From Promethearchaeota archaeon (lineage in GTDB: Archaea; Asgardarchaeota; Lokiarchaeia; Sigyniarchaeales; SOKP01), in assembly GCA_016840085.1 (NCBI GenBank), contig JAEOTA010000054.1:104327-168326 (forward strand): a stretch of 64,000 bases of DNA. Direction: 5' to 3'. A model generated the notes under the pieces. That model did no database searches. It was not told where the DNA came from and saw only the letters and a list, made by a program, of their open reading frames with translations. Positions 15,593 to 54,362 of this stretch are shown in pieces. The translations under genes and the position numbers were made by a program. Each line of letters starts with the position of its first letter. Position 1 is the first letter of the stretch.

Positions 15593-16879
15593 ATGAAAGT
15601 GAGAGCAATAACGATTGGAAATATTATACCCTTCTTATATAAAAATGAAACAATTTTATCTTTCTTACAAGAGAACCTGAATAGTTTCTCAGCTTTAAAT
15701 AATGAATTAATTCATGCGTTAGAACAAATTGGAATAAGTGTTGAAACCAAACGATTTTGTTCTCAACCACTTTTCAGTTTTGATAATAAACTTTTTTATG
15801 AAAAAAATTTAAAAGAGACTCTTGTAGAAATTACCAATCAGTTAAGTTTTTTACAAGATATTCTCAAAGATTACGAATTTGACTACTTTGCATGTTGTAT
15901 GATGCGAGGAGATCAAATTCAGGAGTTAGGGATTTTCGAAAAATTATTGTTAAGTGAAGTTTCAAATTTTATAAAAAATACAGATATCTTTTTTACTTCA
16001 TTACCAGTTGCCTCTACACAAGAAGGAATCAATATTACCGCATTAAAATCTGGTGCTAAAATAATAAAGCAACTTTCAGAACCAGATCCATTTAAAAATT
16101 TAAATTTTTGTGTATCTGCCAATGTGGGTCCAAATTATCCATTTTTCCCTGCAGCATATCATTTTTCAGACAAACCAGCATTTTCTCTTGCTTTAGAAAT
16201 GGCAGACGAAGTAATAGATGCTATAGAAAACTCAAATAGTTTAAAGGACGCTCAATTTAATTTATTAGCAAAGTTTAATAAAATCTATGACGATATAACA
16301 AAAATTTGCGAGAAAATTGGACGAAATTTCGATATAGAATTTAAAGGAATAGATCTTTCTCCTGCACCCTTTCCGGAAATAGAAAAAAGTATTGGTACTG
16401 CCATAGAAAAATTAGGTGTTGAGTATTTTGGAGCTATTGGTACACTTACTGGAGTTGCGTTAATAAAAAACTCTATACCCGTTGATAAAGAAAAAGTGAT
16501 AGGATTTTCTGGTTTTATGCAGCCTGTGTTAGAAGACTTCATTTTATCTAAAAGATTGGCTGAAAATAAATTCAACTTAGATTCACTTCTATTATATTCC
16601 ACTATGTGTGGTACTGGTCTTGATGTTGTTCCATTACCAGGTGATATTACTGAACAAGAGTTGTTTTATATTTTACTAGATATATGTACTATTTCTGTCA
16701 CTTTAAACAAGCCCTTAACAGCTAGGTTAATGCCAATACCCGGAAGAGACATTGGTGATGATGTTGAGTTTGATTTTGAGTATTTTGCACCTTCAAAGAT
16801 TATTAACTTTCGAAGGCTAACTGGCGAAAATAAAAATGATTTATTTAATAGTAATGAAAAGACAATAAAATTCTTCTAA
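15593..16879 (+). CDS. DUF711 family protein
   Basis: MKVRAITIG, PFFPAAYH, GIDLSPAP, GFSGFMQPVLED, CGTGLDVVPLPG, KPLTARLMP. Confidence 0.85.
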   Translation: MKVRAITIGNIIPFLYKNETILSFLQENLNSFSALNNELIHALEQIGISVETKRFCSQPLFSFDNKLFYEKNLKETLVEITNQLSFLQDILKDYEFDYFACCMMRGDQIQELGIFEKLLLSEVSNFIKNTDIFFTSLPVASTQEGINITALKSGAKIIKQLSEPDPFKNLNFCVSANVGPNYPFFPAAYHFSDKPAFSLALEMADEVIDAIENSNSLKDAQFNLLAKFNKIYDDITKICEKIGRNFDIEFKGIDLSPAPFPEIEKSIGTAIEKLGVEYFGAIGTLTGVALIKNSIPVDKEKVIGFSGFMQPVLEDFILSKRLAENKFNLDSLLLYSTMCGTGLDVVPLPGDITEQELFYILLDICTISVTLNKPLTARLMPIPGRDIGDDVEFDFEYFAPSKIINFRRLTGENKNDLFNSNEKTIKFF

Positions 16880-39570: not shown

Positions 39571-40227
39571 CTATTTGCTTGGATATTTTATAATTAAACT
39601 TCTAAGAAAATCACTAATTTCTTCAGCCCTTACGATCATATCAAATAATTTTATGCAAATTTTTGATGTTAGGTATACTTGAAGGGATTTTTCTTCTGAT
39701 TTTTGATATATCACTTCTAAGATATTGAATTTGGATTCACGAGCACGTCGCTTAAGAGTCTCAATATCGAATGACATTTGGTAAGCTGTTTTAAAATCTG
39801 TCTCCATAAGTCTTATCATTTCGATAAGATTTTTTATAGTCTCTTCACATATGTCATTTAATAATTTCAGATCCTCCTTGATATCATCATAAAGGTCAAA
39901 AGGATACACTTTCAAACTACGAGCAAGCTCTTCTGAGTTATCCGAGATAATATCTATATACTTAATTAATCTATAACGATCTTCAACTAAAAAAGGAAGA
40001 GCGCGTTTATCCGAATAAAGACTATTAATGTAATTTTCTTTTGCAATGTCAGCATTATGTTCAGATTGTACTACTTCTTCTAATTTGTTTTTATTTAGCT
40101 TTCCATCTATTAGATCATTAATACAATCATGGAGCAAGTGTGAGCCTTTCAAAACTTCTGTGTAGAATTCCTTCGCAGTATTTAATAATTTATTTTTCTT
40201 ATCTTGTTTTAATTTCATTTTATTCAC
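39571..40227 (-). CDS. DUF47 phosphate transport regulator (PhoU-like)
   Basis: EHNAD, LPFLVEDRYRL; adjacent to PiT. Confidence 0.85.
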   Translation of the reverse strand: MNKMKLKQDKKNKLLNTAKEFYTEVLKGSHLLHDCINDLIDGKLNKNKLEEVVQSEHNADIAKENYINSLYSDKRALPFLVEDRYRLIKYIDIISDNSEELARSLKVYPFDLYDDIKEDLKLLNDICEETIKNLIEMIRLMETDFKTAYQMSFDIETLKRRARESKFNILEVIYQKSEEKSLQVYLTSKICIKLFDMIVRAEEISDFLRSLIIKYPSK

Positions 40228-40417
40228 ATCAAGAATTAATTTTATAATATACGCCTAAAGGAATATAATAGTAATCATTAAGATTTAATTACATAAAAGT
40301 TTTTTAAAAATAACAATAATACATTTCTTCACTAAGTATCTCTCTGGTAGAACCATTTTTACTACAAAAATAGTATTCTGATTATTTTTAACAGACAGAA
40401 AAATTAGATCTAGTACC

Positions 40418-40978
40418 TTGCCCTATACTGAAATAAAATTTAGAGATATAATATTCGATCCAGAAGTTCAATCTTATTGTGTTAATTCCAATTTCAAGTG
40501 TCCTAATTATAATCATTCTTGGGCATGTCCTCCTGAAGCACCTTATCTTGAAAAGGAAGTTTCTACATTTAATAAATTCTTTCTTATTTATTATAAATGT
40601 GATTTAAATGAACATATAGAAAAAGAAAAATTGAAGCATCCTAACCAAAGTGAGAAAAGAATAAGAAACAAGCTTCTAATGACTAATTTTCTAAGAGATA
40701 AATTAGAACAGGAAATTTTTGAATTTCTTAACGAATTTCAAGACAATTATAAACAAAAATTTGTTTTATGGGATGGACATTGCCGAGTCTGTTATAATAT
40801 ACTAGATAAGGATTGCTCTTATGATAGTGGTGAACCATGTAGATATCTTGATAAAATAAGATATTCAATGGAAGCGGTAGGTATAGATGTTACTAAAACT
40901 GTAAGAAATGTGGATCTTGATATCGAATGGCCACCAATTAATTATATTTATCGATTTGGTTTAATATGTATTAAATAA
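40418..40978 (+). CDS. DUF2284 metal-binding protein
   Basis: CPNYNHSWACPP, GHCRVC...C...EPCRY, RYSMEAVGIDV. Confidence 0.88.
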   Translation: MPYTEIKFRDIIFDPEVQSYCVNSNFKCPNYNHSWACPPEAPYLEKEVSTFNKFFLIYYKCDLNEHIEKEKLKHPNQSEKRIRNKLLMTNFLRDKLEQEIFEFLNEFQDNYKQKFVLWDGHCRVCYNILDKDCSYDSGEPCRYLDKIRYSMEAVGIDVTKTVRNVDLDIEWPPINYIYRFGLICIK

Positions 40979-41061
40979 AAAATAGCTAAACTAGACTTTT
41001 TATGTAGAAAAATAAAAACTGGACTACAGTTTTTTTTTATTTATTATTATATTTTTTTCAT

Positions 41062-41589
41062 TTGAGGAAAAAAATTAGAATCATGGTTAACTGGACTCTT
41101 TTTCAAACTGGCTTTGATGTTTTTTGGGATGATCCAATTGGATGGTTTTTAAGCTTACCCTTATTTAGCCAAATATTAATTATTATTGGACTTATTGCAC
41201 TTACTATAGCTGCTCTCGTTTTAGTCTATTATATCTTAAAAGGTCTTGCTTATTTATTATATTATATCTTTAAAGGGTTATATTATCTTTTTAAAGGAAT
41301 TTTCCTTGGCTTCTATAAACTTTTTGAAGCATTTTATCATGCAATTTCAGGAAAACCCAAGAAAAATAGACAAGAAATATTACCTATTCCTGAAACCCCA
41401 CAATTTTCTCGAGAATATTTTCCAAATAGAAATAAACAGAATAAATTTAAGATTCCTAATTATTGCACCGAATGTGGACAAAAAATAACAGAATCTATGA
41501 ATTCCCTTCTAATTTCACGAGGTGTAGGTTATTGTTTTCATTGTGGTAAGGGGTTTAAGTTACAAATGACTTATAATTCTAATTTTTAA
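41062..41589 (+). CDS. Membrane-anchored zinc-ribbon protein (likely start ATG 41083)
   Basis: TM helix, amphipathic KGLxY repeats, YCTECG...YCFHCG. Confidence 0.75.
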   Translation: MRKKIRIMVNWTLFQTGFDVFWDDPIGWFLSLPLFSQILIIIGLIALTIAALVLVYYILKGLAYLLYYIFKGLYYLFKGIFLGFYKLFEAFYHAISGKPKKNRQEILPIPETPQFSREYFPNRNKQNKFKIPNYCTECGQKITESMNSLLISRGVGYCFHCGKGFKLQMTYNSNF

Positions 41590-41639
41590 TATTTCTTCTG
41601 GTTAGAAATTAAAGTAAAATTAAAAAAAAAAAGAATTAC

Positions 41640-42972
41640 TCAAAAGATATTATTATCTAAGACTATCGTTTCCTTCCTATCCGGACCAATAGATATCATA
41701 GCTATATCTACTTGAAGCTCTTCTCTGATTGCTTGAAGGTATATTTTCATGGTGTCTGGTAAAGTGTCATATCCTTTTTCTGAAATTTCTAACCACTTAT
41801 CTCTACTCCTTTCTTCCCATCCTTCAAATGATTTATAAATTGGTTGGCATTTTTCTATAATCTCATGCTGAATAGGCCAACTTTCGAGTGTTTCTCCATT
41901 TAGTTCATATGCAATACACATCTTAATGGTGGGTATTCCTTGCAGAGCATCCAATAAAGTTATGATAATCTTATCAATTCCATTTATCATTATCCCATAT
42001 TTAATATTAAAGAGATCAATCCATCCGACTCTGCGTGGTCTTCCTGTTACCGTACCGTATTCATGACCTTGTTCTCTAATTTTTTCAGCAGTATCATTAA
42101 ATAATTCAGTTGGGAATTTACCCTCTCCCACTCTAGAAGTGTATGCTTTAATTATACCAACTACTTTATTAATTTTTTTAGGAGGTATTCCTGTTCCAGC
42201 AGAAATTCCAAGGGCATTAGCATTTGAAGAGGTACCAAATGGGTAACAACCATGATCTATACATAAGAGATTGCCTTGAGCTCCCTCGAAAACAACTCTT
42301 TTACCGCTATCTATAGCCTTATTTAAGTAATATGCTGTATCGATTACATATGGTTTTAGTTGTTTACCATAAGACTTATATTCTTCATAAATAGATTCTA
42401 AATCAACGTTCCAGCTCGGATCGTAAACCTGTATTATATCTTTCTTAATTTTATATAATTTCTCTAATTTAGGTCTTAATACGTCAGGATTGATCAGATC
42501 ATAAATTCTTAATCCCCAACGAGCCGCTTTATCCGAATATGTTGGTCCAATTCCTCGTTTTGTTGTACCAGCCCTATATTCTCCCTTTGATTTTTCTTCT
42601 AAGCTATCCAACGTGCGATGGAATGGGAAAATAACGTGGGCAGTAGAGCTTAATTTCAAATTAATTTTTTTATTGAGCTTTTTTAAATTTTCAATTTCTT
42701 CAAGAAGAACTTTTGGATCGACCACACATCCATTTGCAATAACACATTCCTTTTCAAGTGGAGCACCACTGGGAATTAACTTGAATTTGTATTTAATTCC
42801 ATTTGCATTGATCGTATGGCCTGCATTATTTCCGCCATTGTATCTTACGACAACATCTGCTTTTTGGGCTAAGTAATCGACGAATTTACCTTTTCCTTCG
42901 TTTGGGGTTAGCATGCGATTTGCCTTGCTAAGCTCCCCAACTTAACCCCATAATTGCTATATTATTACTCAT
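41640..42972 (-). CDS. purA: Adenylosuccinate synthetase split by a 31-nt intron (exons 42972-42933 and 42901-41640; 433 aa spliced)
   Basis: Exon 1 MSNNIAIMGLSWG(D) joined to exon 2 EGKGK; RYNGGNNAGHT, GTTKRGIGP, FEGAQG, EYGTVTGRPRRVGW. Confidence 0.95.
42902..42932 (-). other. Putative BHB-type mRNA intron in purA (31 nt: CTTAGCAAGGCAAATCGCATGCTAACCCCAA)
   Basis: GGGG/CCCC 4-bp helix, AG^C and AA^A trinucleotides, TTAGCA/TGCTAA intron stem; removal gives GGA GAC GAA GGA AAA. Confidence 0.85.
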
Positions 42973-43197
42973 AAGTCATTTTCCATTTGACATTTTTTTA
43001 GAATTACATCATCTTATTTGATCCAAAAAAGATTATTACATACAATTTATAAAATTTTTGGTAGGTAAGAACGGACATAAAAATGATATGAAATGATTTT
43101 TATATTCGAATTTTCTTTAAAATTATATCCTTATTTTGATAAACCATTAATAACAATAAAACTCCTTTAAAAAAATTTCTTTTAAAATGCTGGAACT

Positions 43198-44118
43198 ATG
43201 CCGCAGAAAACAATTTTATTTGATCTCGCTCATAATGAAATGCTAAATATAGAGGATGCTGAATTTTCCGACTTTCTAAGTCTTTTGAAAAGAATGGACA
43301 TTAAGATAAAGAAAACTGAGAATGAGCATCTTAAAAAGAATATGTTAAGTAATGTTGATCTCTTAGTAATTGGCAATCCAATTGATGATTATTTTTCCAG
43401 TATTGAAGTTAAATATATTGTTGATTTTGTTCGAAGTGGAGGGGGATTGCTTCTTTTAAGTGAATATGGCGCGGACTACCTTCAAAAAACTAATTTAAAT
43501 GATATTTCAGGAAAATTTGGGATTCTTTTTGAAAAGAATATAATTAAAGAAAGTACTAGGGAGAATCAAAATATTTCTAGCATATTACATATTAATAAAT
43601 TTTCAAAACATCAAATCACTAAAAATCTAAGAGAAATTGTGGTAGGAGGGGCGTGCTCTCTCCTTTTAAGTAAAGATGCAAAACCAATATTTCAAATTAA
43701 TAAACAATATGTGTGGTCAGAAGTTTTTAATAGCAGTACTGAACAATGGATTAAAGATGAGGAAGAGACACAACAAATTATAGCAGCATTTACAGAATTT
43801 GGGCAAGGAAAGGTATTAGCTATTGGAGATATTGATGTATTTACAACTGATTCTAATATTGGAATTAATTCCTTGGATAATCAAAAATTTTTGCAAAATG
43901 CCATAAATTGGTTAATAGAGCCAGTAAAAGAACAAATGGTGATAAGTTTTTTACTTAATCAATTAGGTGATCTTCAGTATGAAATCAGAGAAACCAATAA
44001 AATATTAAATAACATTATTGAAACGATCACAATATTAGAAAAAAGAATAAGTTATTTAGAGAAAAACTCGAGTTTTCACAAAAAAAGTTTAAAAAATGAA
44101 AAGAATAGCGAAAAGTAA
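43198..44118 (+). CDS. GIFT-domain (IFT52/GldG/DUF4350-like) protein with C-terminal coiled coil
   Basis: TILFDLAHNE, DLLVIGNP, FVRSGGGLLLL, TNLN, GQGKVLAIGD, NQKFLQNAINWL; heptad tail. Confidence 0.75.
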   Translation: MPQKTILFDLAHNEMLNIEDAEFSDFLSLLKRMDIKIKKTENEHLKKNMLSNVDLLVIGNPIDDYFSSIEVKYIVDFVRSGGGLLLLSEYGADYLQKTNLNDISGKFGILFEKNIIKESTRENQNISSILHINKFSKHQITKNLREIVVGGACSLLLSKDAKPIFQINKQYVWSEVFNSSTEQWIKDEEETQQIIAAFTEFGQGKVLAIGDIDVFTTDSNIGINSLDNQKFLQNAINWLIEPVKEQMVISFLLNQLGDLQYEIRETNKILNNIIETITILEKRISYLEKNSSFHKKSLKNEKNSEK

Positions 44119-44120
44119 TC

Positions 44121-44654
44121 ATGGGAGAAGTCACTTATAAAATTGTCGTTTTTGGAAATGGTGGAGTAGGGAAAACTACTCTACTTCATCGTTATATAAC
44201 AGGGAAATTCTTTTTAGACACAAAAGTGACGATTGGTTTGGACATTGCGGTGAAATACCTGGAAATAGAAGGTATTAAGATTACGCTTCAGATATGGGAT
44301 TTCGGAGGTGAAGATCGGTTTAGATTCCTTTTACCTAATTATACCCGTGGTGCATTTGGAGGAATTTTCATGTATGATACTACACGACCTCATAGTTTAC
44401 GGAATATTGATGAGTGGTTAGAAATATTTAGAAGAGAACAAATTAAAAAATTTCATGCTCCATTAATATTAGTTGGAGGAAAGTCAGATCTTATAACAAG
44501 GAGATTAATTTCTGAAAAAGAAGCAAAAAAAGTAGCAAAATCCTATAAAATTTCTCATCACTTTGAATGTTCTGCTAAAACGGGTGAAAATGTAGAATTA
44601 ATATTTGATACTTTAATAAGAACAATTATGAGAAAAGCAAGTCTCCTTAAATAG
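44121..44654 (+). CDS. Rab-like small GTPase
   Basis: GNGGVGKTT, TIGLD, WDFGGEDRFR, GKSD, CSAK. Confidence 0.92.
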   Translation: MGEVTYKIVVFGNGGVGKTTLLHRYITGKFFLDTKVTIGLDIAVKYLEIEGIKITLQIWDFGGEDRFRFLLPNYTRGAFGGIFMYDTTRPHSLRNIDEWLEIFRREQIKKFHAPLILVGGKSDLITRRLISEKEAKKVAKSYKISHHFECSAKTGENVELIFDTLIRTIMRKASLLK

Positions 44655-44901
44655 AGTTTTTTGAATATATTTCAGATATCTATTTTATTTCACTACTATA
44701 TAGAAGATCTAAATGCTTAATTGCCATTTCTTGCGAAATATGATGATTCTTTAATTTTTCAGAAATAGTAGTTAGGAGATATCTAGGGGTAAATTTATTA
44801 ATAGTTATATCAAATAAAAGAGCATAATGATTTTTGCCCCTTACTTCAATTTCATCCACACAATTTATCTATATATTTCTACTGTAAAAAAAACCTTTTT
44901 C

Positions 44902-44916
44902 GAGTCAATATGACTC
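44902..44916. promoter_or_regulatory. Inverted repeat GAGTCA-ATA-TGACTC, possible operator upstream of abfD
   Basis: 6-3-6 perfect dyad about 115 nt before ATG 45031. Confidence 0.35.
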
Positions 44917-45030
44917 AAGTATTTATCTTTAAAATGTTAGATCTTAATTTGTATTAAGACTATTTTTAATAATTATGAGAACTTTACTTTTTTATTAACT
45001 TAATTTGAAAAGATTTAGGTATTTAAAAAA

Positions 45031-46476
45031 ATGCCATTAAAAACGCCGGAAGAATATTTAGAGAGTATTAAAAGACCTGTAAACTTATACATGTTTGGTG
45101 AAAAAGTAAAAGAGTTTTGGAATCACCCAATTATCAAACCTTCGATAAATACTGTTATGAAAATTTATGAATTAGCACAATTGGATGAATATAAGGACCT
45201 CATGACAGCAAAATCACATTTAACTGGTGAAACAATTAATCGATTCACTCACATTCATCAATCTATAGATGATTTAATTAAAAAAGTACAAATGCAAAGA
45301 TTACTTGGACAAAAAACTGCGTGTTGTTTTCAGAGATGTGTTGGTTTTGATACCGCTAATGCGTTATACAGTGTAACTTCCGAAATGGATAAAAAATATG
45401 GAACAGATTATCATAACCGATTCAAAAATTATTGGATTGAAGTACAAAATCAAGATTTAATGGTTGATGGGGCCATGACAGATACAAAAGGAGATCGAAG
45501 TAAAAGACCTAACCAACAATCAGATCTAGATGCATATTTGCATATTGTGGAAGAGAATGATGAGGGTATTGTCGTTCGAGGCGCAAAAGTCCATCAGACT
45601 GGATTTTTAAACTCTCATAGAGCCATTATTATGCCTACTCTTACTATACGTCCTGGAGAAGAAGAATACGCTGTTAGTTTCGGAATAGATACTAATGCTA
45701 AAGGAATCACTTTAGTATATGGAAGGCAATCATGTGATACTAGAAAAATGGAAAAAGGAAAATTAGATATTGGTAACTTTAAGTATGGAGGTCAAGAGAT
45801 ATTTGTAATCTTTGATAATGTGTTTGTTCCAAAAGATCAAATCTTTATGAAGGGTGAAATTGAATTTTCAGGAGAATTAGTCAACAGATTTGCTGGTTTT
45901 CATAGACAATCATATGGCGGGTGTAAAGTGGGAGTTGGAGATGTGCTCATTGGGGCAGCAGCTTTAATTTCAGAATATAATGGGACAGAAAGAGCGTCTC
46001 ACATTCGTGATAAACTTGTTGAGATGGTTCATTTAAACGAGACACTATATAGTTGTGGAATTGCATGTAGTTCTTTGGGTTTTCAAAGAGAAGCTGGAAA
46101 TTATGAAATGGATATGCTACTTGCAAATGTTTGTAAGCAAAATGTTACTCGATTTCCCTATGAAATAGGGAGATTAGCTGAAGATCTCGCCGGGGGATTA
46201 ATATGTACACTTCCTTCTGAAGCAGATTTCAAATCTGAGGAAATTGGTCACTTAATAAGCAAATATCTTTCCACATGTGAAGGAATAGGACCTGATGATC
46301 GTTATAAAGTTCTGCGCTTTATTGAAAATTTGACGATGGGCGTTGCTTCAGTAAGCTATCGGACGGAATCAATGCATGGAGCAGGAAGCCCTATGACGCA
46401 GAGAATTATGATTTCACGTCAAGCCAATCTGGAAGAAAAGAAGAAGCATGTAAAAAATATTCTTGATATTGATTAA
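45031..46476 (+). CDS. abfD: 4-hydroxybutyryl-CoA dehydratase / vinylacetyl-CoA isomerase
   Basis: CCFQRCVG, GAMTDTKGDRS, GAKVHQTG, FHRQSYGGCKVG, ESMHGAGSP. Confidence 0.9.
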   Translation: MPLKTPEEYLESIKRPVNLYMFGEKVKEFWNHPIIKPSINTVMKIYELAQLDEYKDLMTAKSHLTGETINRFTHIHQSIDDLIKKVQMQRLLGQKTACCFQRCVGFDTANALYSVTSEMDKKYGTDYHNRFKNYWIEVQNQDLMVDGAMTDTKGDRSKRPNQQSDLDAYLHIVEENDEGIVVRGAKVHQTGFLNSHRAIIMPTLTIRPGEEEYAVSFGIDTNAKGITLVYGRQSCDTRKMEKGKLDIGNFKYGGQEIFVIFDNVFVPKDQIFMKGEIEFSGELVNRFAGFHRQSYGGCKVGVGDVLIGAAALISEYNGTERASHIRDKLVEMVHLNETLYSCGIACSSLGFQREAGNYEMDMLLANVCKQNVTRFPYEIGRLAEDLAGGLICTLPSEADFKSEEIGHLISKYLSTCEGIGPDDRYKVLRFIENLTMGVASVSYRTESMHGAGSPMTQRIMISRQANLEEKKKHVKNILDID

Positions 46477-46561
46477 ATTGTAAATGTTATAAGAAAATTT
46501 TAAACGTACTATAATTTTAATCCAATTAAATAAATAATTCCATTTTCTAAATTGGTAAAAC

Positions 46562-47944
46562 ATGAGTGAGAAATCATTTGATGAGATATTTTCTGTTTTT
46601 GAAGAGGTTTGCAACAGCTATAAAAGGAGTAATCAATATTTTGACATTCTTTTTGATTCAGAATCATCTGCTCTTATTACAAAATCACGTACATCAGAAA
46701 ATATTGTTGTGAATGCAAAGAAATCGGGAATAGTTGCTAGAACATTTACAGGCATATGGAAAGAAATAACTTTAACTGAATTTTCAGGCATAAAAAAAAT
46801 CGAAGAAAAATTGCCTAGAGTTGCAAATATGGGTAAAAATCTTATGGAATTTGAAGGATGGAGTTTAAATGAAGAAATAAAGCCAAAAATTAATCCACTT
46901 GAAGTTCCAATTGATGAAAAAATCAAAAAAGTTAGAGATATTTATGACTATATGATGAAAACTGATGACCGAATAATTAATACGGAAGTTAAATACATGG
47001 AACAATTTACGGAACGAATTTTTTTTAATAATGAAGGATGTCAATTAAGGCAAGTCATCCCTAGATCAAAACTCTTTATTATTCCTGTAGCAAAAGAAGG
47101 AATTGTAGCAGACTATGATTATTACATTGATACTGGTGAAATTGGCTTTGAAATCTTTGATAAGATTGATAATGACACATTAGATAAAACTGCTGAAAAA
47201 TCTTTGGAGCTGCTCCAAGCAGTATTAGCACCTTCTGGAAAATATCCTGTCATTTTAGACCCTGGTATGACTGGAATAGTCGCACATGAAAGTTTTGGAC
47301 ATGGTCTTGAAGCAGATCAAGTTATGCGGGATAGAAGTTATTTGAAAGCGAAACTTAATCAACAAGTTGCATCTGAAATTTGTACAATCTGTGATTCACC
47401 TACAATTGATAATGCTTTTGGGACTTACTTTTTTGATGATGAGGGGATCAAAGCAAGTAAAAATCTATTGGTTAAAGATGGGATATTAAAAGATTTCATA
47501 TATGATAGAAGAACTGCTTCTGCGTTAAATGCCATCCCAAAAGGTAATGGGAGAAGGGAAAGTTTTGCTCATCCTGTTCACCCAAGAATGACAAATACTT
47601 ATTTTGAACCTGGTGATTATTCCCTAGAAGAAATGATTAAAGGAATCAAGTATGGTGTGTTTTTGGTTCATGAATATTTCGGTATGGAAGATCCACTTGG
47701 AGGAGGGATGCAAAACACTTCTAAGAAAGGCTATTTAATTGAGAATGGAGAAAAAACCAAGATATTAAAGGCGGTAACACTAAGTGGTCATGTATTGGAG
47801 ACATTACCCAAAATTGATGCAATTAGTAGGGGACCAATTGAAATAAATGGAGGGACATGTGGCAAAGGTGATGAAGATAATGTTCCTGTAGGGAGCGGAG
47901 GTACTTACGTTCGAATTAAAGAAGCATTAATTAGTCCAGGGTGA
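46562..47944 (+). CDS. tldD: TldD family metalloprotease
   Basis: AHESFGHGLEAD (HExxxH), DDEG, GNGRRES, PRMTNT, CGKG. Confidence 0.92.
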   Translation: MSEKSFDEIFSVFEEVCNSYKRSNQYFDILFDSESSALITKSRTSENIVVNAKKSGIVARTFTGIWKEITLTEFSGIKKIEEKLPRVANMGKNLMEFEGWSLNEEIKPKINPLEVPIDEKIKKVRDIYDYMMKTDDRIINTEVKYMEQFTERIFFNNEGCQLRQVIPRSKLFIIPVAKEGIVADYDYYIDTGEIGFEIFDKIDNDTLDKTAEKSLELLQAVLAPSGKYPVILDPGMTGIVAHESFGHGLEADQVMRDRSYLKAKLNQQVASEICTICDSPTIDNAFGTYFFDDEGIKASKNLLVKDGILKDFIYDRRTASALNAIPKGNGRRESFAHPVHPRMTNTYFEPGDYSLEEMIKGIKYGVFLVHEYFGMEDPLGGGMQNTSKKGYLIENGEKTKILKAVTLSGHVLETLPKIDAISRGPIEINGGTCGKGDEDNVPVGSGGTYVRIKEALISPG

Positions 47945-49281
47945 TATTAAAGATGACAAATGAAAAATTTGATTTAATTGAAGAAACTCTTAAAGCGAAA
48001 AATATTGAGGAATATGAAATTTATTTCATTGAAAAAGAATTCTATGAAACAATGTTCTTAAAAAGTGAACCAGAAGTAGAAAGAGAAATAGAAGATTTTG
48101 AGTATTTTATCCGAATCCTTACTCAAAAAGGAGATCAAACGGGAGTAGGTGTTGTTAAAGGAAATTCTATGGATTCTAAAGAATTAGGAAAAAATATAGA
48201 TACTTGCGTTTTGCTTTCTAAGAATAATATTACTTCAAAATATCGGTTTCCAGAAAAGAGACCAATTTCAAAAATTACTACAGCTGACAACGCTATATTG
48301 AAAGATCCGATTGGTATAAAAAATGATCTATGTGAAGAGCTAATAAGCCTAGTTAAAGAACAAAAAGGAGTAGTTCCAACTTTTGGTCGGTTAAGGTTAC
48401 ATATTAAAAATAGCTTGTTAAGAAATAGTAATGAAGTAAATCTTGATTCCACAAAAACATTCTTGTATGTAGAATATTCCTTAAAGGCACAAAGAAATGG
48501 GAAATTATCTGAATATTGGAACACAGAATATTTCAAAGAAAAAGAACATTTAAATTTTAAGAAAAGAGTGGTTGAATGGGCAAAAATTGCAAAAGATACT
48601 TTAATAGCAGAACCACCTAAACCTAATAAGGAAGCAATTGTTATATTTACACCTCATGTTTTAAAGGAAGCAATTATTCCCGTGATTGGATTTCATGCTT
48701 CAGGACAGTCTTTTAGCGAGGAGACTTCTGCTTACAATATAAATAATGAGGTGGCTTCTAAAGAAATCACAATTATAGATGATGGACTCCTTGAAGGCGG
48801 ATTAAGCTCTAACCCATGGGATGGTGAAGGAAATCCTCATCAGAAAACAGTAGTGATCAAAAATGGTATCTTCCAAAAACGATTGTATGATCAAAAATAT
48901 GCTAAAATAAACGGTGAAGATTCAACTGGAAACGGGATAAGAAGCAATTTTGGTGGAATTAATAATGGGATTAGCAATTTCCAAATTATTCCTGGAACCA
49001 CATCTTTAGATGATATGATTTCAGATATAAAAGAAGGTTATTATATAGAGAAATTTTCATGGTTGAACCCTGAAGAATTATCAGGATATTTCGGCGCAGA
49101 AATAAGAAATGGCTATTATATTAAAAATGGTGAATTTCAGAATCCAATAAAACTTGGAAATGTGAGTGGTAATGTTTTAGAAATGATGAAAAATTGTCTA
49201 CATATTTCAAAAGAAACAGAATTTTCAGAGAATTCTCTCTTTCCATATATGTGTTTCTCTAATTTAACCGTGTCATTTTAA
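47941..49281 (+). CDS. pmbA: TldE/PmbA family protein
   Basis: WDGEG, STGNG, SGN; lacks HExxxH; 4-bp overlap with tldD. Confidence 0.85.
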   Translation: MILKMTNEKFDLIEETLKAKNIEEYEIYFIEKEFYETMFLKSEPEVEREIEDFEYFIRILTQKGDQTGVGVVKGNSMDSKELGKNIDTCVLLSKNNITSKYRFPEKRPISKITTADNAILKDPIGIKNDLCEELISLVKEQKGVVPTFGRLRLHIKNSLLRNSNEVNLDSTKTFLYVEYSLKAQRNGKLSEYWNTEYFKEKEHLNFKKRVVEWAKIAKDTLIAEPPKPNKEAIVIFTPHVLKEAIIPVIGFHASGQSFSEETSAYNINNEVASKEITIIDDGLLEGGLSSNPWDGEGNPHQKTVVIKNGIFQKRLYDQKYAKINGEDSTGNGIRSNFGGINNGISNFQIIPGTTSLDDMISDIKEGYYIEKFSWLNPEELSGYFGAEIRNGYYIKNGEFQNPIKLGNVSGNVLEMMKNCLHISKETEFSENSLFPYMCFSNLTVSF

Positions 49282-49333
49282 AATTAATATTAATCTTTTT
49301 TATTTAAGACCTTAAAAAAAAGTAGAATAAGAA

Positions 49334-50563
49334 TTAATTATCTTTTTCAATCTCAACTTTAATTAAGTTGTAATTTCTTGTTCCTAAGCCTATTTCTTCA
49401 GCTGCTTTTAATTGTGTTTCCCAGTGTTTTGATTCTTTTCCATCTTGATTAAAATTCATCTCTCTGGACTGAGGATCATAACGAGGGATGTGTGAAAACC
49501 ATTCAAAAGGTCCTTGCATTGGTATATTTTTTACTTCCGAAAGAATTGAATGAGGGTTAATTGAAGATTTATGTATAAGATCTACGGTAGCTTGATCCAA
49601 GGCAACGGGATCTAAGGACGCTAAAACCCCAATATCTGGAACAAACGGGATGTCAGAACCTCCTGTACAATCACATTGATAGGTTATATCTATAGCAAAA
49701 TTAATGTAAAAAATCTTATCTTTTCCGAAATAATCTACTACTCCCTTGGCGTTGTCAACCATCTGAGTAATAAATTCAACACGCGGAACGTGACCTATAT
49801 TAATTACTTCATCTTTACATACAGAAGCACACATATAACAAAATTTACACAATTCTTCGTTAAAACTTAATTTATTGTCATCATCTTTGGTCAAAGCATG
49901 TGTAGGACATATATTAATACAATTCTTGCATTCAAGATTACAAGAATCAAAATTAAACTCGAAAGTTTTCCCTGTATGTGCTTCAACCTTACCTCCCTTA
50001 GAAACACATCCGATTCCAAGATTTTTTATTGAACCTCCGAAACCGGCACTTGCATGTCCTTTAAAATGAGTTGCCATAATCATATAATCAAATTTTCTTA
50101 AGCGTCCTGCTACTAACACTTCATTAAAACGTTTCCCATTAATCTTCTGAATTTCAATATCAGTTCCATCCTCCCCATCTAACATTAAAATTGGTGCTCC
50201 CATAGTTTCTTCTGTAAAACCATGAATTAAGGCAGTTTTTAAATATTCAGTTTCAGTTGCTCTACCCGAATATTCTGTATGAACCCCAGAGACACTTTCT
50301 GGTACACCCCATCCACATGATTCTGCTAAAGATGGAACAGCGCCTAAATCTTTAGTATAATCGCATAAAAATCGTAAATAACTTGGACGGAGATATCGAG
50401 TATTCTCTAATGCTCCAAAATGTGTCTTAATTACTATTTTATCGCCACTTTTAATCCTTTGCTCAATTCCAAGCTTCTTCAATGCTAATGGACCTTTAAA
50501 TTTACTCATACTTTGCTCATGAGAGTGAGTTCGAGCTGTAAAATAAAATACATCTGATTTCAT
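49334..50563 (-). CDS. DUF362 family Fe-S protein with ferredoxin insert
   Basis: IKTHFG, HFKGH...FGGSIKNLGIGC, two Cys clusters, CDC...DIGVLASLDPVALDQA. Confidence 0.88.
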   Translation of the reverse strand: MKSDVFYFTARTHSHEQSMSKFKGPLALKKLGIEQRIKSGDKIVIKTHFGALENTRYLRPSYLRFLCDYTKDLGAVPSLAESCGWGVPESVSGVHTEYSGRATETEYLKTALIHGFTEETMGAPILMLDGEDGTDIEIQKINGKRFNEVLVAGRLRKFDYMIMATHFKGHASAGFGGSIKNLGIGCVSKGGKVEAHTGKTFEFNFDSCNLECKNCINICPTHALTKDDDNKLSFNEELCKFCYMCASVCKDEVINIGHVPRVEFITQMVDNAKGVVDYFGKDKIFYINFAIDITYQCDCTGGSDIPFVPDIGVLASLDPVALDQATVDLIHKSSINPHSILSEVKNIPMQGPFEWFSHIPRYDPQSREMNFNQDGKESKHWETQLKAAEEIGLGTRNYNLIKVEIEKDN

Positions 50564-50719
50564 TTCTTTTCACTAATTAAAACTTCTCTATAATTCATGT
50601 AAATAATTAGGGTTTATAATTTAAGGCAAAAAATATTTTAACACTAATTAATTCTATTAATATAATAAATAAATACAATAATAACTCAGAAAAAAAAAGA
50701 AAAATAGGACGGTATTTTA

Positions 50720-50978
50720 ATGGCCCGCTGTCCAGAAAGTTTTTTTGTATACACAAATTAACATGGATTGCGGAGGGTTTATGAAATACCATTCAGCTAT
50801 AAAACAAGTCGTCTGCCAATCATGTGGACTTTCTTTAACGAGGCATGAATTAGATCGTTATTGGAAAAAGGTGAGGAATGAAAATATTTCGGAGGTAGAT
50901 GATACGCAGCAAAAGAAAAATCGACGTAAAGAATGGCTTGAATGGTATTCTTCTTCCAAATCTGATAAAGAATATTAA
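50720..50978 (+). CDS. Small Zn-ribbon protein split by a 31-nt intron (exons 50720-50737 and 50769-50978; 75 aa MARCPECGGFMKY...CQSCG...)
   Basis: Spliced product restores the CPECGG knuckle that pairs with CQSCG; unspliced frame stops at TAA 50759-50761. Confidence 0.8.
50738..50768 (+). other. Putative BHB-type mRNA intron (31 nt: AGTTTTTTTGTATACACAAATTAACATGGAT)
   Basis: h CTGT/GCGG; H CCAG/ATGG (3 WC + G.A); bulges AA^A and AT^T; intron stems GTT/AAC and TTTGT/ACAAA. Confidence 0.75.
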
Positions 50979-51052
50979 AAGTAGAAATTATAAAGAAATT
51001 CTACATAAAAAGAGAATTCTATTTAGAATAAGAAAAATTGAGTTATAATCTA

Positions 51053-52264
51053 TTAATTACCAAGCATTCTTTCAATAATATCTTCTAATAATTCTGCTAA
51101 TTTTTTTGCGGGAATATCTAATAAAGTAATTTCTAGATGCCTTCCTCGAGTAGCATCTTCAATTCTCACCGTTTTTGAAGCAATAATTTTAAGTTGGTTA
51201 AGTTGGCGTATATATTTTCTGAAACTCATTTTTACATGCGGTTCTACTAAATAACTCTCACATATTACCTTATATTCTTCGTACGCATCATCAACAAGAG
51301 TAAAAGGTGTATCGGAGTTTATCAATGATCTCGTAATTCCATACAAAGCTAACAGCTCTTGATCTTTTAATTCGTCAATTATATCATTTCTAAATGTAGG
51401 ATATACATCATCTGAAGCTTCTCTAATTATATCAGCTGTAATTAAGTTCAATTCTTCTTTATCGCAATATGACCCACTTTTTCTTAATATTTCAATTCCA
51501 TGTCTCATGTTTTTATGGTCCACAACTATCTGAGAAACCATAGTTAATAGTTCTTCATCAATAACATATTCTTTAAGTGCTAATTCGCTGCGGTATTTTA
51601 AAATTTGCATTGCTTCATCAAATTCATAGGGTTCAAGTTTAATTCTCTCGTTCAATCTGCTTAAAATTCTTTCATTTTCAATCCGCATCCAATCTTTACT
51701 TCTACAAATTAATAGCAATGATAATTTTGCGTTTTGATGTCCAAAAGTTTCTGCAATGTCAAGAAATGCTAAAACATCATCAGGATTTAAAAGATGAATC
51801 TCATCTATTATCAATAACATATAACCTTGTTCCCGAATTAGTTGGGAGAGAATTAACTTTAAGGCTTCGTCGTCGCTAAAGCCTCTACCGCTTCCATGCT
51901 GATATTTAGCGAGAAGCTCTCTGATTATCTTACTTTTAGAACGAAAATTGATACAATTATAATATTCAATGAAGAGATTTACATCTTTTTCAGTTGCAAT
52001 TGTTCTAAAATTTTTGCCGAAATATCTCGCAGTGCAAGTTTTTCCAACACCGCCTTTTCCCAAGATAAGACAATTTATAGAAGGCTGCTCTTCTTCTTCC
52101 AAAATTCTCCTATAATTAAAAATTAATGTTTTTAGAGCGTCATCTCGACAATATAACTTGTCCGGCACCCAACTTAAATCAAGAGTTCCAGACATTCGAA
52201 AAACTGATTTTTTCCCAAATTCCTTTCTAAAAGCATCCTCGTCCATAATAAATCGAGTAAGCAA
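51053..52264 (-). CDS. cdc6: Orc1/Cdc6 family AAA+ ATPase
   Basis: WVPDKLYCRD, GKGGVGKT, YYNC, LIIDEIH, RILSRL, C-terminal winged helix with RGR. Confidence 0.92.
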   Translation of the reverse strand: MLTRFIMDEDAFRKEFGKKSVFRMSGTLDLSWVPDKLYCRDDALKTLIFNYRRILEEEEQPSINCLILGKGGVGKTCTARYFGKNFRTIATEKDVNLFIEYYNCINFRSKSKIIRELLAKYQHGSGRGFSDDEALKLILSQLIREQGYMLLIIDEIHLLNPDDVLAFLDIAETFGHQNAKLSLLLICRSKDWMRIENERILSRLNERIKLEPYEFDEAMQILKYRSELALKEYVIDEELLTMVSQIVVDHKNMRHGIEILRKSGSYCDKEELNLITADIIREASDDVYPTFRNDIIDELKDQELLALYGITRSLINSDTPFTLVDDAYEEYKVICESYLVEPHVKMSFRKYIRQLNQLKIIASKTVRIEDATRGRHLEITLLDIPAKKLAELLEDIIERMLGN

Positions 52265-52388
52265 AATATATTTATTAATAAATAAGTAATAATGGCACAG
52301 ATTAGGTAAAAAGTTTATTATACTTATGAATTTATGTTTTTTAACTAATAAAATGATTATGTAATAAATAAAATATATACATTTACAT

Positions 52389-53306
52389 TTAATCCATTTT
52401 ATTTAAGGGATGCATCTGGGAGTATGCTTCTTTCAGCTTAGTTATATCATTTTTGGCGTAAATCCGTGTAGTATTTGGATTTGAATGGCCTAAAATATCT
52501 TGTAATTCGCTAATATCCATTCCTGAACGTCTAAGATGAGTTGCCCCCGTATGTCGGAATATGTGTGGGGTGACGATCTTAGAATCTGGAAACCCACATT
52601 TATCTTTTATGGATTTTATATCAGATTGAACAACGCGAGGATATAATTTCTGACTTCGAGTATTTACCAATAAATAATCTTCAGAATCGTAATAAATTCT
52701 GTCATTGAGAACATCCTTAATAAGTTCTAAAGTCCTGTGATCTACAGGCACTATCCTCTCTTTATTTCCTTTTCCGCGAAGTCTGATATATTCTTTCTCA
52801 AAATCAATATCTCGAATTTTAATGTTACATAACTCACTTACTCTTGCCATCGTCGAGTATAATAACCTTACAATTAAATAATAACGTTGGCTTTTACGAG
52901 AATTGAATAGCATTCTATCTTTTAATTTTTTAAAGATTAATTCTATATCAGACAAATCTAAAAATTTGGGTAAGCTTTCTTCAAGTTTAATCTTCGGTGT
53001 TTTAATCGTACTCATAGGATCTTTCGAAATGAATTCGTTAAGAACAAGAAATTTGAAAAATGAACGTAATGAAGCAATTTTTCGACTTATACCTTTTTTC
53101 GTGTAATTCATTTCATTTAACTTTTTCAAAAAAAATCGAATCTTTTGACGAATAAGCGGAGAATTTAATGAGAGATCTCCTATAATATTAATAAATTTCT
53201 GAAGATCATAACGATATGCTTTGATGGTTGAAGAAGAACAGCCCTCCTCGACTTCTTTGGCTATTAAGAAGTCTTCTATAAAATCAGAAATTTTAGAGGT
53301 TTCCAT
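52389..53306 (-). CDS. xerA: Tyrosine recombinase XerA/XerC-D family (likely start ATG 53306)
   Basis: TIKAYRYDL, LPKFL, ARVSEL, GKGNKER, HIFRH, LGH, TTRIY: R-K-H-R-H-Y catalytic set. Confidence 0.9.
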   Translation of the reverse strand: METSKISDFIEDFLIAKEVEEGCSSSTIKAYRYDLQKFINIIGDLSLNSPLIRQKIRFFLKKLNEMNYTKKGISRKIASLRSFFKFLVLNEFISKDPMSTIKTPKIKLEESLPKFLDLSDIELIFKKLKDRMLFNSRKSQRYYLIVRLLYSTMARVSELCNIKIRDIDFEKEYIRLRGKGNKERIVPVDHRTLELIKDVLNDRIYYDSEDYLLVNTRSQKLYPRVVQSDIKSIKDKCGFPDSKIVTPHIFRHTGATHLRRSGMDISELQDILGHSNPNTTRIYAKNDITKLKEAYSQMHPLNKMD

Positions 53307-53314
53307 AATAAGAG

Positions 53315-53336
53315 ATGTATTATCATGATAATACAT
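53315..53336. promoter_or_regulatory. Perfect 22-bp palindrome ATGTATTATCA|TGATAATACAT upstream of xerA
   Basis: Directly visible; ends 8 nt before the probable xerA start codon. Confidence 0.6.
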
Positions 53337-53417
53337 AATACACTGTAATATTCACATAATATCAGTTTCATTCCTTTTTCAAAGGGTGGATATATTTCAG
53401 AGAGGTGTTTATTTTGT

Positions 53418-54362
53418 TTATTTTGTCTGTCCTTCTCCATACCATCCTTTTTTAATAAATAAGTATGCATTCATCGCTGCTGTCGTTGCTTCCCCAACTG
53501 CCGTTGCTACCTGTCGTATTCCACCTGTTACATCTCCTGCTGCATAAATACCGGGAATATTAGTTTCTTGTTTCTCATTGACCTTAATATAATTATATTC
53601 ATCAGTATCAATACCTGCTTTTTTCGCTAATTCGCTCTGTGGCTCAACTCCTATTGCAACGAAGAGAGCTTTTATATTTATTTCAGTTATTTCGTCAGTT
53701 TCATGATTTTTAATTTTTAGCTTCCCTACTCTGTCTTCTTCTGCGATAATTTCTTCAATAGTGCTATTAAACATTTTTGTGACATTATTTAATGCCATAA
53801 CCTCATCTGCAATTGCTTTTTCTGCACGCATACGGTGACGTCTATGAATAAGATACACTTCTCTTGCAACACCTGAAAGATAAATTGCTTCTAGACCCGC
53901 TGCATTCCCACCACCAACCGTAGCAACTACCTGATTTCTAAATAAAGGACCGTCACAAGTAGCACAGTAAGAAATTCCATTACCTATTAATTCTATCTCA
54001 TTAGGTAATCCAAGTGTTTGATGTTTCGAACCAGTAGCAATTATGATGGCTTTTACTTTTATGTTACCTTTATATGTAGTTATGGTCATTTCTTTTGGAT
54101 TGATTGCTGAGATTTTTTCATAAAAAAAAGTAGCTCCCCAATTTTCCGCTTGATCCTTCATTTTTTCAGTTAATTCAAGACCGTTGATACTCTCGAATCC
54201 GGGATAATTTTCGATTTTGGGAGCTGTCCCGGCTAGCCCTCCAAAACTTTCACACTCATAGAGAATAGTCCTTAAACCCATTCTTCCACCATAAATTGCA
54301 GCTGTTAATCCTGCAGGTCCACCCCCAATGATTGCTAGATCTATATCATTTTTATCAGACAA
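53418..54362 (-). CDS. trxB: Thioredoxin reductase
   Basis: IIGGGPAG, IENYPG, SYCATCDG, GGGNAA, IHRR, AAGD. Confidence 0.95.
   Translation of the reverse strand: MSDKNDIDLAIIGGGPAGLTAAIYGGRMGLRTILYECESFGGLAGTAPKIENYPGFESINGLELTEKMKDQAENWGATFFYEKISAINPKEMTITTYKGNIKVKAIIIATGSKHQTLGLPNEIELIGNGISYCATCDGPLFRNQVVATVGGGNAAGLEAIYLSGVAREVYLIHRRHRMRAEKAIADEVMALNNVTKMFNSTIEEIIAEEDRVGKLKIKNHETDEITEINIKALFVAIGVEPQSELAKKAGIDTDEYNYIKVNEKQETNIPGIYAAGDVTGGIRQVATAVGEATTAAMNAYLFIKKGWYGEGQTK

What the first reader, a model, noticed from the sequence alone, without database searches (positions are those of the whole stretch)
50720..50780. Second 31-nt BHB intron restores a CPECGG zinc knuckle in a small gene next to cdc6
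ATG GCC CGC TGT CCA GAA|AGTTTTTTTGTATACACAAATTAACATGGAT|TGC GGA GGG. Unspliced it reads MARCPESFFVYTN*; spliced it reads MARCPECGGFMKY...VCQSCG, a complete C4 Zn ribbon. The ORF-track version has only three Cys. Fold: exon helix C50728-T50731 with G50770-G50773 (2 GC + 2 GU); central helix CCAG/ATGG with one G.A mismatch; bulges AA^A and AT^T; intron stems GTT/AAC and TTTGT/ACAAA with an ATAC loop. Nearby cuts would give CPDCGG, but the BHB register picks out CPECGG.
Basis: partly seen in the sequence, partly recalled or inferred. Interest (0 to 1): 0.88.

Follow-up and report, generated by a model that had tools for sequence, protein, structure and literature searches.

The report
tRNA-type mini-intron in Asgard zinc-ribbon gene
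A 31-base insert shaped like the introns that archaea cut out of tRNAs splits the first zinc-binding motif of a small conserved gene in a Loki-type Asgard archaeon, and comparison with about 150 relatives shows that it very probably has to be spliced out of the messenger RNA, which the papers I could search report inside only one other archaeal coding sequence (cbf5).

Summary
Observation confirmed; interpretation supported by comparative evidence, with no RNA evidence. The insert is 50738-50768. Of 44 genus orthologs, 29 read CPE-CGG without a break and 15 carry a 28-31-nt insert exactly between E6 and C7. All 15 form a relaxed bulge-helix-bulge (BHB) at that register; random 31-mers do so 1% of the time. 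Inserts of unrelated sequence sit at the same site in another genus and another order, and one lies 10 nt away; none is a multiple of 3. Exon 1 varies only synonymously and exon 2 has dN/dS 0.08, which argues against a pseudogene. Frameshifting and ribosome hopping fail across orthologs. RtcB and the EndA beta subunit are in this assembly. The catalytic alpha subunit was not found (its whole region is missing) but is in 51 of 54 congeners, with the loop that allows relaxed motifs. purA, EF-2 and uS3 of this genome carry similar 30-31-nt inserts. The scan found this same intron before in other genomes (e1-5591307, e1-5591311, e1-5590276). It works like the crenarchaeal cbf5 intron; spliced reads are still needed.

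The parts
50720..50737 (+). Exon 1, six codons (MARCPE), carrying the first Cys of the first CxxC
   Evidence: same six residues in 15 of 15 insert-bearing congeners, with synonymous changes only
50738..50768 (+). 31-nt intervening sequence (predicted EndA intron), between codons 6 and 7; frameshifting, with a stop in the exon-1 frame
   Evidence: absent at exactly this point in 29 of 44 congeners
50769..50978 (+). Exon 2: CGG, rest of the zinc ribbon with second CxxC, then a long helix, stop
50728..50731 (+). BHB exon helix, 5' strand (pairs with 50770-50773)
50732..50735 (+). BHB central helix, 5' strand CCAG (pairs with ATGG at 50763-50766, one G.A mismatch)
50736..50738 (+). 5' bulge AA^A, predicted cut after 50737
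   Evidence: cut rule from PMC2738675
50739..50762 (+). Intron hairpin: GTT/AAC, internal loop, TTTGT/ACAAA, 4-nt loop
50767..50769 (+). 3' bulge AT^T, predicted cut after 50768
50711..50719 (+). Upstream segment that pairs with exon 2 (50782-50790) and extends the stem under the BHB; could instead be a Shine-Dalgarno-like motif
   Evidence: GGTA core in 15 of 15 insert-bearing and 10 of 29 intronless congeners
42902..42932 (-). Companion 31-nt BHB-type insert in the catalytic Asp codon of purA (separate gene, same phenomenon)
   Evidence: insert in 16 of 30 congeners examined, central helix mostly 4 of 4
51053..52264 (-). Convergent cdc6/orc1-family gene (neighbour only)

Best explanation
The 31 bases are an mRNA intron removed by the tRNA-splicing machinery. 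The transcript folds into a long stem topped by a relaxed bulge-helix-bulge. The (alpha-beta)2 splicing endonuclease EndA cuts after the second base of each bulge (after 50737 and after 50768), and RtcB joins the exons. The mRNA then encodes a 75-aa TFIIB/TFS-type C4 zinc ribbon with a C-terminal helix, of a family conserved in Asgard, Bathyarchaeia and Nitrososphaerota, whose job is not established. Shown: the insert, its exact ends, the fold's feasibility, selection on both exons, and the enzymes in the genus. Inferred: transcription, cleavage, ligation and zinc binding. I think the intron is most likely a tolerated passenger that comes and goes at a site whose codons (CCA GAA) supply half of a BHB, rather than a regulatory switch.
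For: Ortholog-fixed junction equals BHB cut sites. 15 of 15 congener inserts pass the BHB test versus about 1% of random 31-mers. The central helix is 3 of 4 in all 15, with the mismatch at opposite ends in the two sequence types: 12 C.A/G-C and 3 C-G/G.A. Inserts with unrelated inner sequence occur at the same site in another genus (central 4 of 4) and another order (3-4 of 4), and 10 nt downstream in a third genus (4 of 4). Exon 1 shows only synonymous change, and the two codons inside the motif are fixed (CCA GAA in 15 of 15 versus 14 of 29 without insert). Exon 2 dN/dS is 0.081 with insert and 0.078 without. One copy only in the genome. RtcB and EndA beta are present. EndA alpha is in 51 of 54 congeners, best matches the Aeropyrum pernix catalytic subunit (E 2e-32) and aligns through its specific loop. 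uS3, EF-2 and purA of this genome are broken by like inserts.
Against: No spliced RNA was seen here. The catalytic EndA subunit was not found in this assembly; 6-11 kb around it in two sister species also find no syntenic match, so an assembly gap is likely but not shown. The central helix is imperfect and the BHB is 0.5 kcal/mol above the minimum-energy fold. Classical covariation is weak: 1 pair with a two-sided change, not above shuffles. One distant insert (G070) fails my strict test on the intron helix.
Confidence: 0.88

Rival explanations
1. No splicing: translation starts inside or after the insert (ATG at 50763 or 50781) and makes a shorter protein with two or three Cys.
For: The three closest inserts (type A) hold an in-frame ATG just before C7, and many database entries begin at MKY.
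Against: The 12 type-B inserts have CTG there, not ATG. Exon 1 is kept at the amino-acid level with synonymous change only. All four Cys are invariant in 44 full-length homologs. The ATG is also the 3' strand of the central helix.
Confidence: 0.04
2. Translational recoding: a frameshift or polymerase slip at the T7 run, or ribosome hopping over the hairpin as in T4 gene 60.
For: This insert has seven T in a row and its +1 frame is open; 31 nt needs a net +1 shift.
Against: In sister G024 the +1 frame has a stop. Type-B inserts have no T run and need +1 or +2. Read-through would put about 10 residues inside CxxC. Hopping needs matched take-off and landing codons (my knowledge of gene 60), but GAA would have to land on GAT, GAA, GTT, AAA or AAG in different genomes. 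It does not explain the BHB geometry.
Confidence: 0.04
3. Pseudogene: the gene is dead in the insert-bearing genomes.
For: The unspliced frame stops after 13 codons; the assembly lacks the catalytic EndA subunit.
Against: Exon 2 is open in all insert-bearing genomes and as constrained as in intronless ones (dN/dS 0.081 versus 0.078). Inserts persist over synonymous distances of pS about 0.3-0.6. The gene was matched in nearly all genomes of the class searched and there is no second copy.
Confidence: 0.02
4. EndA cuts the BHB, but mainly to destroy or throttle the mRNA; ligated product is a minor, regulated fraction.
For: The upstream segment and start codon sit in a long stem before and after splicing, which could tune translation. 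In Haloferax an EndA-cut 5' UTR intron affects expression (PMC7714728).
Against: Most relatives do without the insert; presence is patchy, with at least 7 changes on the tree, which fits a neutral passenger better than a needed switch. This is a variant of the best explanation, not exclusive of it.
Confidence: 0.1

Closest known systems
cbf5 pre-mRNA intron of Desulfurococcales and Sulfolobales (Watanabe 2002; Yoshinari 2006; Yokobori 2009, PMC2738675)
   Same: Short insert (cbf5: 16-44 nt) in a coding sequence, splitting a key motif; relaxed BHB with cuts after the second bulge base; hetero-oligomeric EndA; patchy gain and loss at one fixed site; often missed by annotation.
   Different: Different gene and phylum; lengths here cluster at 28-31 nt; several genes per genome carry such inserts; cbf5 splicing is shown by cDNA and in vitro, this one is not.
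BHB intron in the 5' UTR of HVO_1309, Haloferax volcanii (PMC7714728)
   Same: EndA-cut intron in an mRNA.
   Different: 46 nt, outside the reading frame, cut by a euryarchaeal enzyme; the protein can be read without removing it.
Non-canonical tRNA introns of Asgard archaea (PMC11291895; bioRxiv 10.64898/2026.10.13.758758)
   Same: Same lineage group, same motif, repeated gains at re-used positions, route of arrival unknown, mostly (alpha-beta)2 EndA.
   Different: Those papers treat tRNA genes only; the preprint's text has no match for 'mRNA' or 'cbf5'.
HAC1/XBP1 unconventional mRNA intron (Ire1 cut, Trl1/RtcB ligation); from my own knowledge
   Same: Short frameshifting intron removed without a spliceosome and sealed by a tRNA ligase.
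   Different: Cut by Ire1 at two stem-loops, not by EndA at a BHB; stress-regulated; no such regulation is shown here.

Membership tests
Archaeal BHB (EndA) mRNA intron, cbf5 type | Intervening sequence absent from orthologs at a precise point in a protein-coding gene | tested here: met
   29 of 44 congeners contiguous at E6-C7
Archaeal BHB (EndA) mRNA intron, cbf5 type | Two 3-nt bulges separated by a 4-bp helix (strict or relaxed), ends after the second bulge base | tested here: met
   relaxed form here (3 of 4); 4 of 4 in G103 and G069
Archaeal BHB (EndA) mRNA intron, cbf5 type | Removal restores a conserved, selected reading frame | tested here: met
Archaeal BHB (EndA) mRNA intron, cbf5 type | Host has an EndA able to cut relaxed motifs ((alpha-beta)2 with the L1/CSL loop) and a ligase | tested here: inconclusive
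   RtcB and beta subunit in this assembly; alpha with loop in 51 of 54 congeners, including both closest sisters, but not found in this assembly
Archaeal BHB (EndA) mRNA intron, cbf5 type | Spliced mRNA seen in the cell | not testable with these tools
   no RNA holder listed, so no reads could be laid
Archaeal BHB (EndA) mRNA intron, cbf5 type | Cleavage by EndA in vitro at both bulges | not testable with these tools
   bench assay
Group I or II self-splicing intron | Ribozyme core of some hundreds of bases | tested here: not met
   31 nt; no Rfam match in 40000-54000 at E up to 1
Mobile element / MITE insertion | Other copies in the genome, terminal repeats, target duplication | tested here: not met
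   no second copy within 7 mismatches; no exact target duplication at the ends
Translational bypass (T4 gene 60 type) | Matched take-off and landing codons | tested here: not met
   landing codon differs from GAA in 14 of 15
TFIIB/TFS-type C4 zinc ribbon (host protein) | CxxC-x(14-17)-CxxC with beta-hairpin fold | tested here: inconclusive
   Four invariant Cys and predicted ribbon, but all Pfam and NCBIfam hits are below cut-off and the best PDB fold match is E 0.13 over 29 residues

The most novel reading that the evidence does not exclude
In Lokiarchaeia, EndA/RtcB splicing of mRNA is routine and needed for core genes (uS3, EF-2, purA, this zinc ribbon). Introns of about 30 nt arise again and again from new sequence at pre-adapted 'proto-BHB' codon sites such as CCA GAA, and are lost precisely. 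That would make an endonuclease-based mRNA intron system with ongoing turnover in the closest prokaryotic relatives of eukaryotes.
Probability: 0.55. Interest if true: 0.88.

Novelty: new member of a known kind. Interest (0 to 1): 0.72.

Why it matters
In the papers I could search, splicing inside an archaeal coding sequence is documented only for cbf5, and the 2009 paper names other cases as predicted and unconfirmed. If this and the other inserts are spliced, archaeal mRNA splicing is a regular step of gene expression in Asgard archaea. That bears on how eukaryotic non-spliceosomal splicing (tRNA endonuclease, RtcB, XBP1/HAC1) may have started. It also means Asgard gene annotations are systematically truncated: about a third of the database entries for this family start after the first Cys pair. 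This locus is a clean test substrate: a 60-nt RNA, natural variants with perfect and imperfect central helices, and sister species with and without the intron, in which intron gain and loss can be studied.

Tried and rejected
Search for RNA runs of 49300-53400: no RNA holder listed, so no reads were laid; this is no evidence either way. Looking for a spliced contig through protein records: no full-length database protein equals the spliced product of any insert-bearing genome, and four near ones came from contigs that run into both flanking genes or are labelled metagenomic and have intronless-type upstream sequence. I did not send the joined 75-aa protein to database tools because it has no reference; the intronless ortholog of G006 stood in for it. 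A de novo genome scan for BHB plus frame-joining gave 92 sites at 28-32 nt with no peak at 30-31, missed both known cases and had no null run: uninformative. The pairwise comparison used 1.6 Mb (about half) of G006 and cannot see introns shared by both genomes. Covariation statistics were not above shuffles. The link between insert and upstream helix is not significant on independent pairs (median p 0.25). No source for the insert was found in the genome. The sigma-70 promoter scan is not suited to archaea and was not used. Fold searches gave only generic zinc ribbons. Seven literature searches found no report of Asgard mRNA introns; the library lacks most subscription journals.

Full report
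Observation. The sequence is as described. An ATG at 50720 opens six codons (MARCPE), 31 bases follow (50738-50768), and the frame that continues with CGG runs to a stop at 50978. Unspliced, translation ends after 13 codons. Spliced, it gives 75 residues with two CxxC pairs. Sliding the 31-nt cut by -1 to -4 gives CPDCGG and by +1 to +3 CPESGG; only register 0 gives CPECGG. The region folds much better than shuffles (-28.2 kcal/mol, z -4.1). The BHB conformer is not the minimum-energy structure but is 0.5 kcal/mol above it (0-3.1 in 15 congeners). A separate Logan assembly of SRR14699982 is identical over 941 bases, insert included.

Host. The genome has 4.68 Mb, 29.5% GC and is 98.8% complete. 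Close homologs are named Promethearchaeota or Lokiarchaeota by their sources, so this is a Loki-type Asgard archaeon. ARAGORN finds only 13 tRNA genes, most with introns, in line with the heavily interrupted tRNAs reported for other Asgard groups.

Orthologs fix the junction. Exon 2 matched 44 of 48 congeners and most genomes of the order, class and phylum. Among 44 readable genus loci, including this one, 29 have CPE directly followed by CGG and 15 have an insert at exactly that point: 28 nt (4), 29 nt (7) or 31 nt (4). Here the insert's ends share no base with the flanks, so the ortholog codons GAA and TGC fix the junction uniquely, and it coincides with the cut sites predicted after the second base of each bulge (rule as in PMC2738675). 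A wider search gave four more inserts at the same site: one more congener (28 nt), one in another genus and two in another order (31 nt each). A further 31-nt insert lies 10 nt downstream in a third genus. None of these 20 is a multiple of three.

The motif is kept while the sequence is not. All 15 congener inserts pass a fixed BHB test (central helix at least 3 of 4, exon helix at least 3 of 4, first two intron pairs) at the ortholog-defined register. About 1% of shuffled inserts or random genomic 31-mers pass between the same exons. The 15 are kin, so this is not 15 independent trials. The central helix is always 3 of 4, but three genomes (type A, including this one) have the mismatch at the intron end (G.A) and twelve (type B) at the exon end (C.A). 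The inserts of G103, G069 and the shifted one of G131 have 4 of 4; G070 has 3 of 4 and fails my test on the intron helix. Inner sequences of the different types are not more alike than shuffles. Formal covariation is weak, because most pairs never vary.

Both exons are under selection. In insert-bearing genes exon 1 always encodes MARCPE; codons 2-4 vary synonymously, while codons 5-6, which form the central helix and bulge, are CCA GAA in 15 of 15 against 14 of 29 in intronless genes. Exon 2 has dN/dS 0.081 with insert and 0.078 without. The four Cys are invariant in 44 full-length homologs. There is one copy in the genome. This argues against a pseudogene and against a start inside the insert. 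Recoding also fails: the exon-2 frame through the insert is closed in two genomes, only type A has a T run, the needed shift is +1 or +2, and the last codon of the insert matches the take-off codon GAA in 1 of 15.

History. On a tree from cdc6 and exon 2 (helix columns left out) presence of the insert changes at least 7 times, and a single clade of insert-bearers is rejected (p-AU 1.7e-85). Type A is one well-supported clade; type B is scattered. The tree cannot tell repeated gain from one gain and many precise losses, and short hairpins can diverge beyond recognition, so independent origin is likely for the distant orders but not shown. A GGTA-containing segment upstream of the ATG pairs with the KY codons of exon 2 in all 15 insert-bearers and in 10 of 29 intronless genes, most of the latter nested near insert-bearers. 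It may be a relic of lost introns or simply a ribosome-binding motif; the independent-pairs test is not significant.

Machinery. RtcB is present. The one EndA gene found in this assembly lacks the His and the aromatic residue of the catalytic motifs when aligned to the Methanocaldococcus enzyme, so it is the structural beta subunit. Congeners have two paralogues (44 of 54 with both; alpha in 51 of 54, including sisters G024 and G048). The alpha subunit best matches the Aeropyrum pernix catalytic subunit (E 2e-32) and aligns through the specific loop with its Lys, which confers cleavage of relaxed motifs and is reported for Asgard enzymes (PMC5829648). Alpha was not found in this genome; 6-11 kb around it in the two sisters also have no syntenic match, which points to an assembly gap. 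This remains a hole in the evidence for this exact genome.

Not an isolated case. purA, 8 kb away on the other strand, has a 31-nt insert in its catalytic Asp codon (42902-42932), present in 16 of 30 congeners, with a distribution different from the zinc-ribbon insert. Comparing about 1,000 genes with half of G006 gave six clean frame-breaking inserts of 28-31 nt (four here, including this one, and two in G006), five with a 4 of 4 central helix, whereas only one of 15 in-frame indels passed the BHB test. EF-2 has two 30-nt inserts with stops (central 4 of 4 each) and uS3 is split, its first insert (31 nt) being a full BHB. A cell whose only detected uS3 gene is split this way needs some means of removing such inserts.

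The host protein. The intronless ortholog has no Pfam or NCBIfam hit above cut-off. The model (pLDDT 75) is a zinc ribbon followed by one long helix; the best solved-structure match is the ribbon of archaeal TFS4 at E 0.13. Look-alike clusters are in Promethearchaeota, Bathyarchaeia and Nitrososphaerota. My best guess is a small transcription-associated or nucleic-acid-binding factor; this is inference only. It lies convergent with cdc6 in the genus and in several other families of the order, which shows no functional link.

Comparison with what is known. It works like the cbf5 pre-mRNA intron of Crenarchaeota: small, relaxed BHB, motif-splitting, patchy, hetero-oligomeric EndA. A 2020 study calls cbf5 the only mRNA example besides its own 5' UTR intron in Haloferax. 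A 2026 preprint on Asgard tRNA introns reports repeated gains at BHB sites but does not treat mRNA. I found no paper on Asgard mRNA introns. Membership features testable from DNA are met; spliced RNA and cleavage are not testable here. The scan itself has noted this same intron in other genomes and many like it; those notes are leads, not support, and one reports an RNA-derived contig lacking such an intron in another gene, which I did not check.

Verdict. A real feature, very probably an EndA/RtcB-spliced mRNA intron (0.88). A new member of a known kind, but one that, with its neighbours, points to routine mRNA splicing in Asgard archaea. Interest 0.72.

Noticed in passing
window 42902-42932 (-): 31-nt BHB-type insert in the catalytic Asp codon of purA; in 16 of 30 congeners, distribution differs from the zinc-ribbon insert.
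   Followed up: partly
G000:C4:16273-16302 and 16144-16173 (-), locus L255: EF-2-family gene with two 30-nt in-frame inserts containing stops, central helices 4 of 4; removal restores the AH-IDHGKT motif and the following acidic motif.
   Followed up: partly
G000:C85:142161-142191 (+) and about 142250-142280, loci L259/L260: uS3 gene split by two inserts; the first (31 nt) is a full BHB, the register of the second (30 nt) is not settled.
   Followed up: partly
G000:C24:30582-30611 (+), C6:13999-14028 (-), C9:138211-138240 (-): Three further 30-nt stop-containing inserts with 4 of 4 central helices, absent in G006; genes not identified by a family search.
   Followed up: partly
G006:C1 near 1129379 (+) and 1621948 (-): 28-nt and 30-nt inserts with 4 of 4 central helices in G006 that this genome lacks; the first gene looks like ribosomal protein uL11 (from memory, not tested).
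   Followed up: no
L236 (G131) zinc-ribbon gene: A 31-nt insert in the same gene but 10 nt downstream, inside codon 10, with its own 4 of 4 central helix: a second intron position.
   Followed up: partly
window 50763-50765: The 3' strand of the central helix is an ATG in frame with exon 2 in all three type-A inserts and in G070, so unspliced RNA could give a three-Cys product.
   Followed up: no
G000:C79:3618-4223 (L081); L201, L202: Only the non-catalytic EndA subunit is in this assembly; the catalytic subunit and its neighbours were not found, probably an assembly gap.
   Followed up: partly
protein records P0014-P0092: About a third of database homologs are 62-67 aa and start after the first Cys pair, and a few carry a false N-terminus read through the insert: a systematic annotation error.
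   Followed up: partly
window 52389-53336 (-): Tyrosine recombinase (XerA-like) directly upstream of cdc6 on the same strand; followed upstream by two thioredoxin-reductase-like genes.
   Followed up: no
window 50811-50829 (+): Terminator-like hairpin with a T run inside exon 2, over the second CxxC codons; probably incidental.
   Followed up: no
whole genome G000: ARAGORN finds only 13 tRNA genes, most with introns, suggesting many multiply interrupted tRNA genes are missed.
   Followed up: no
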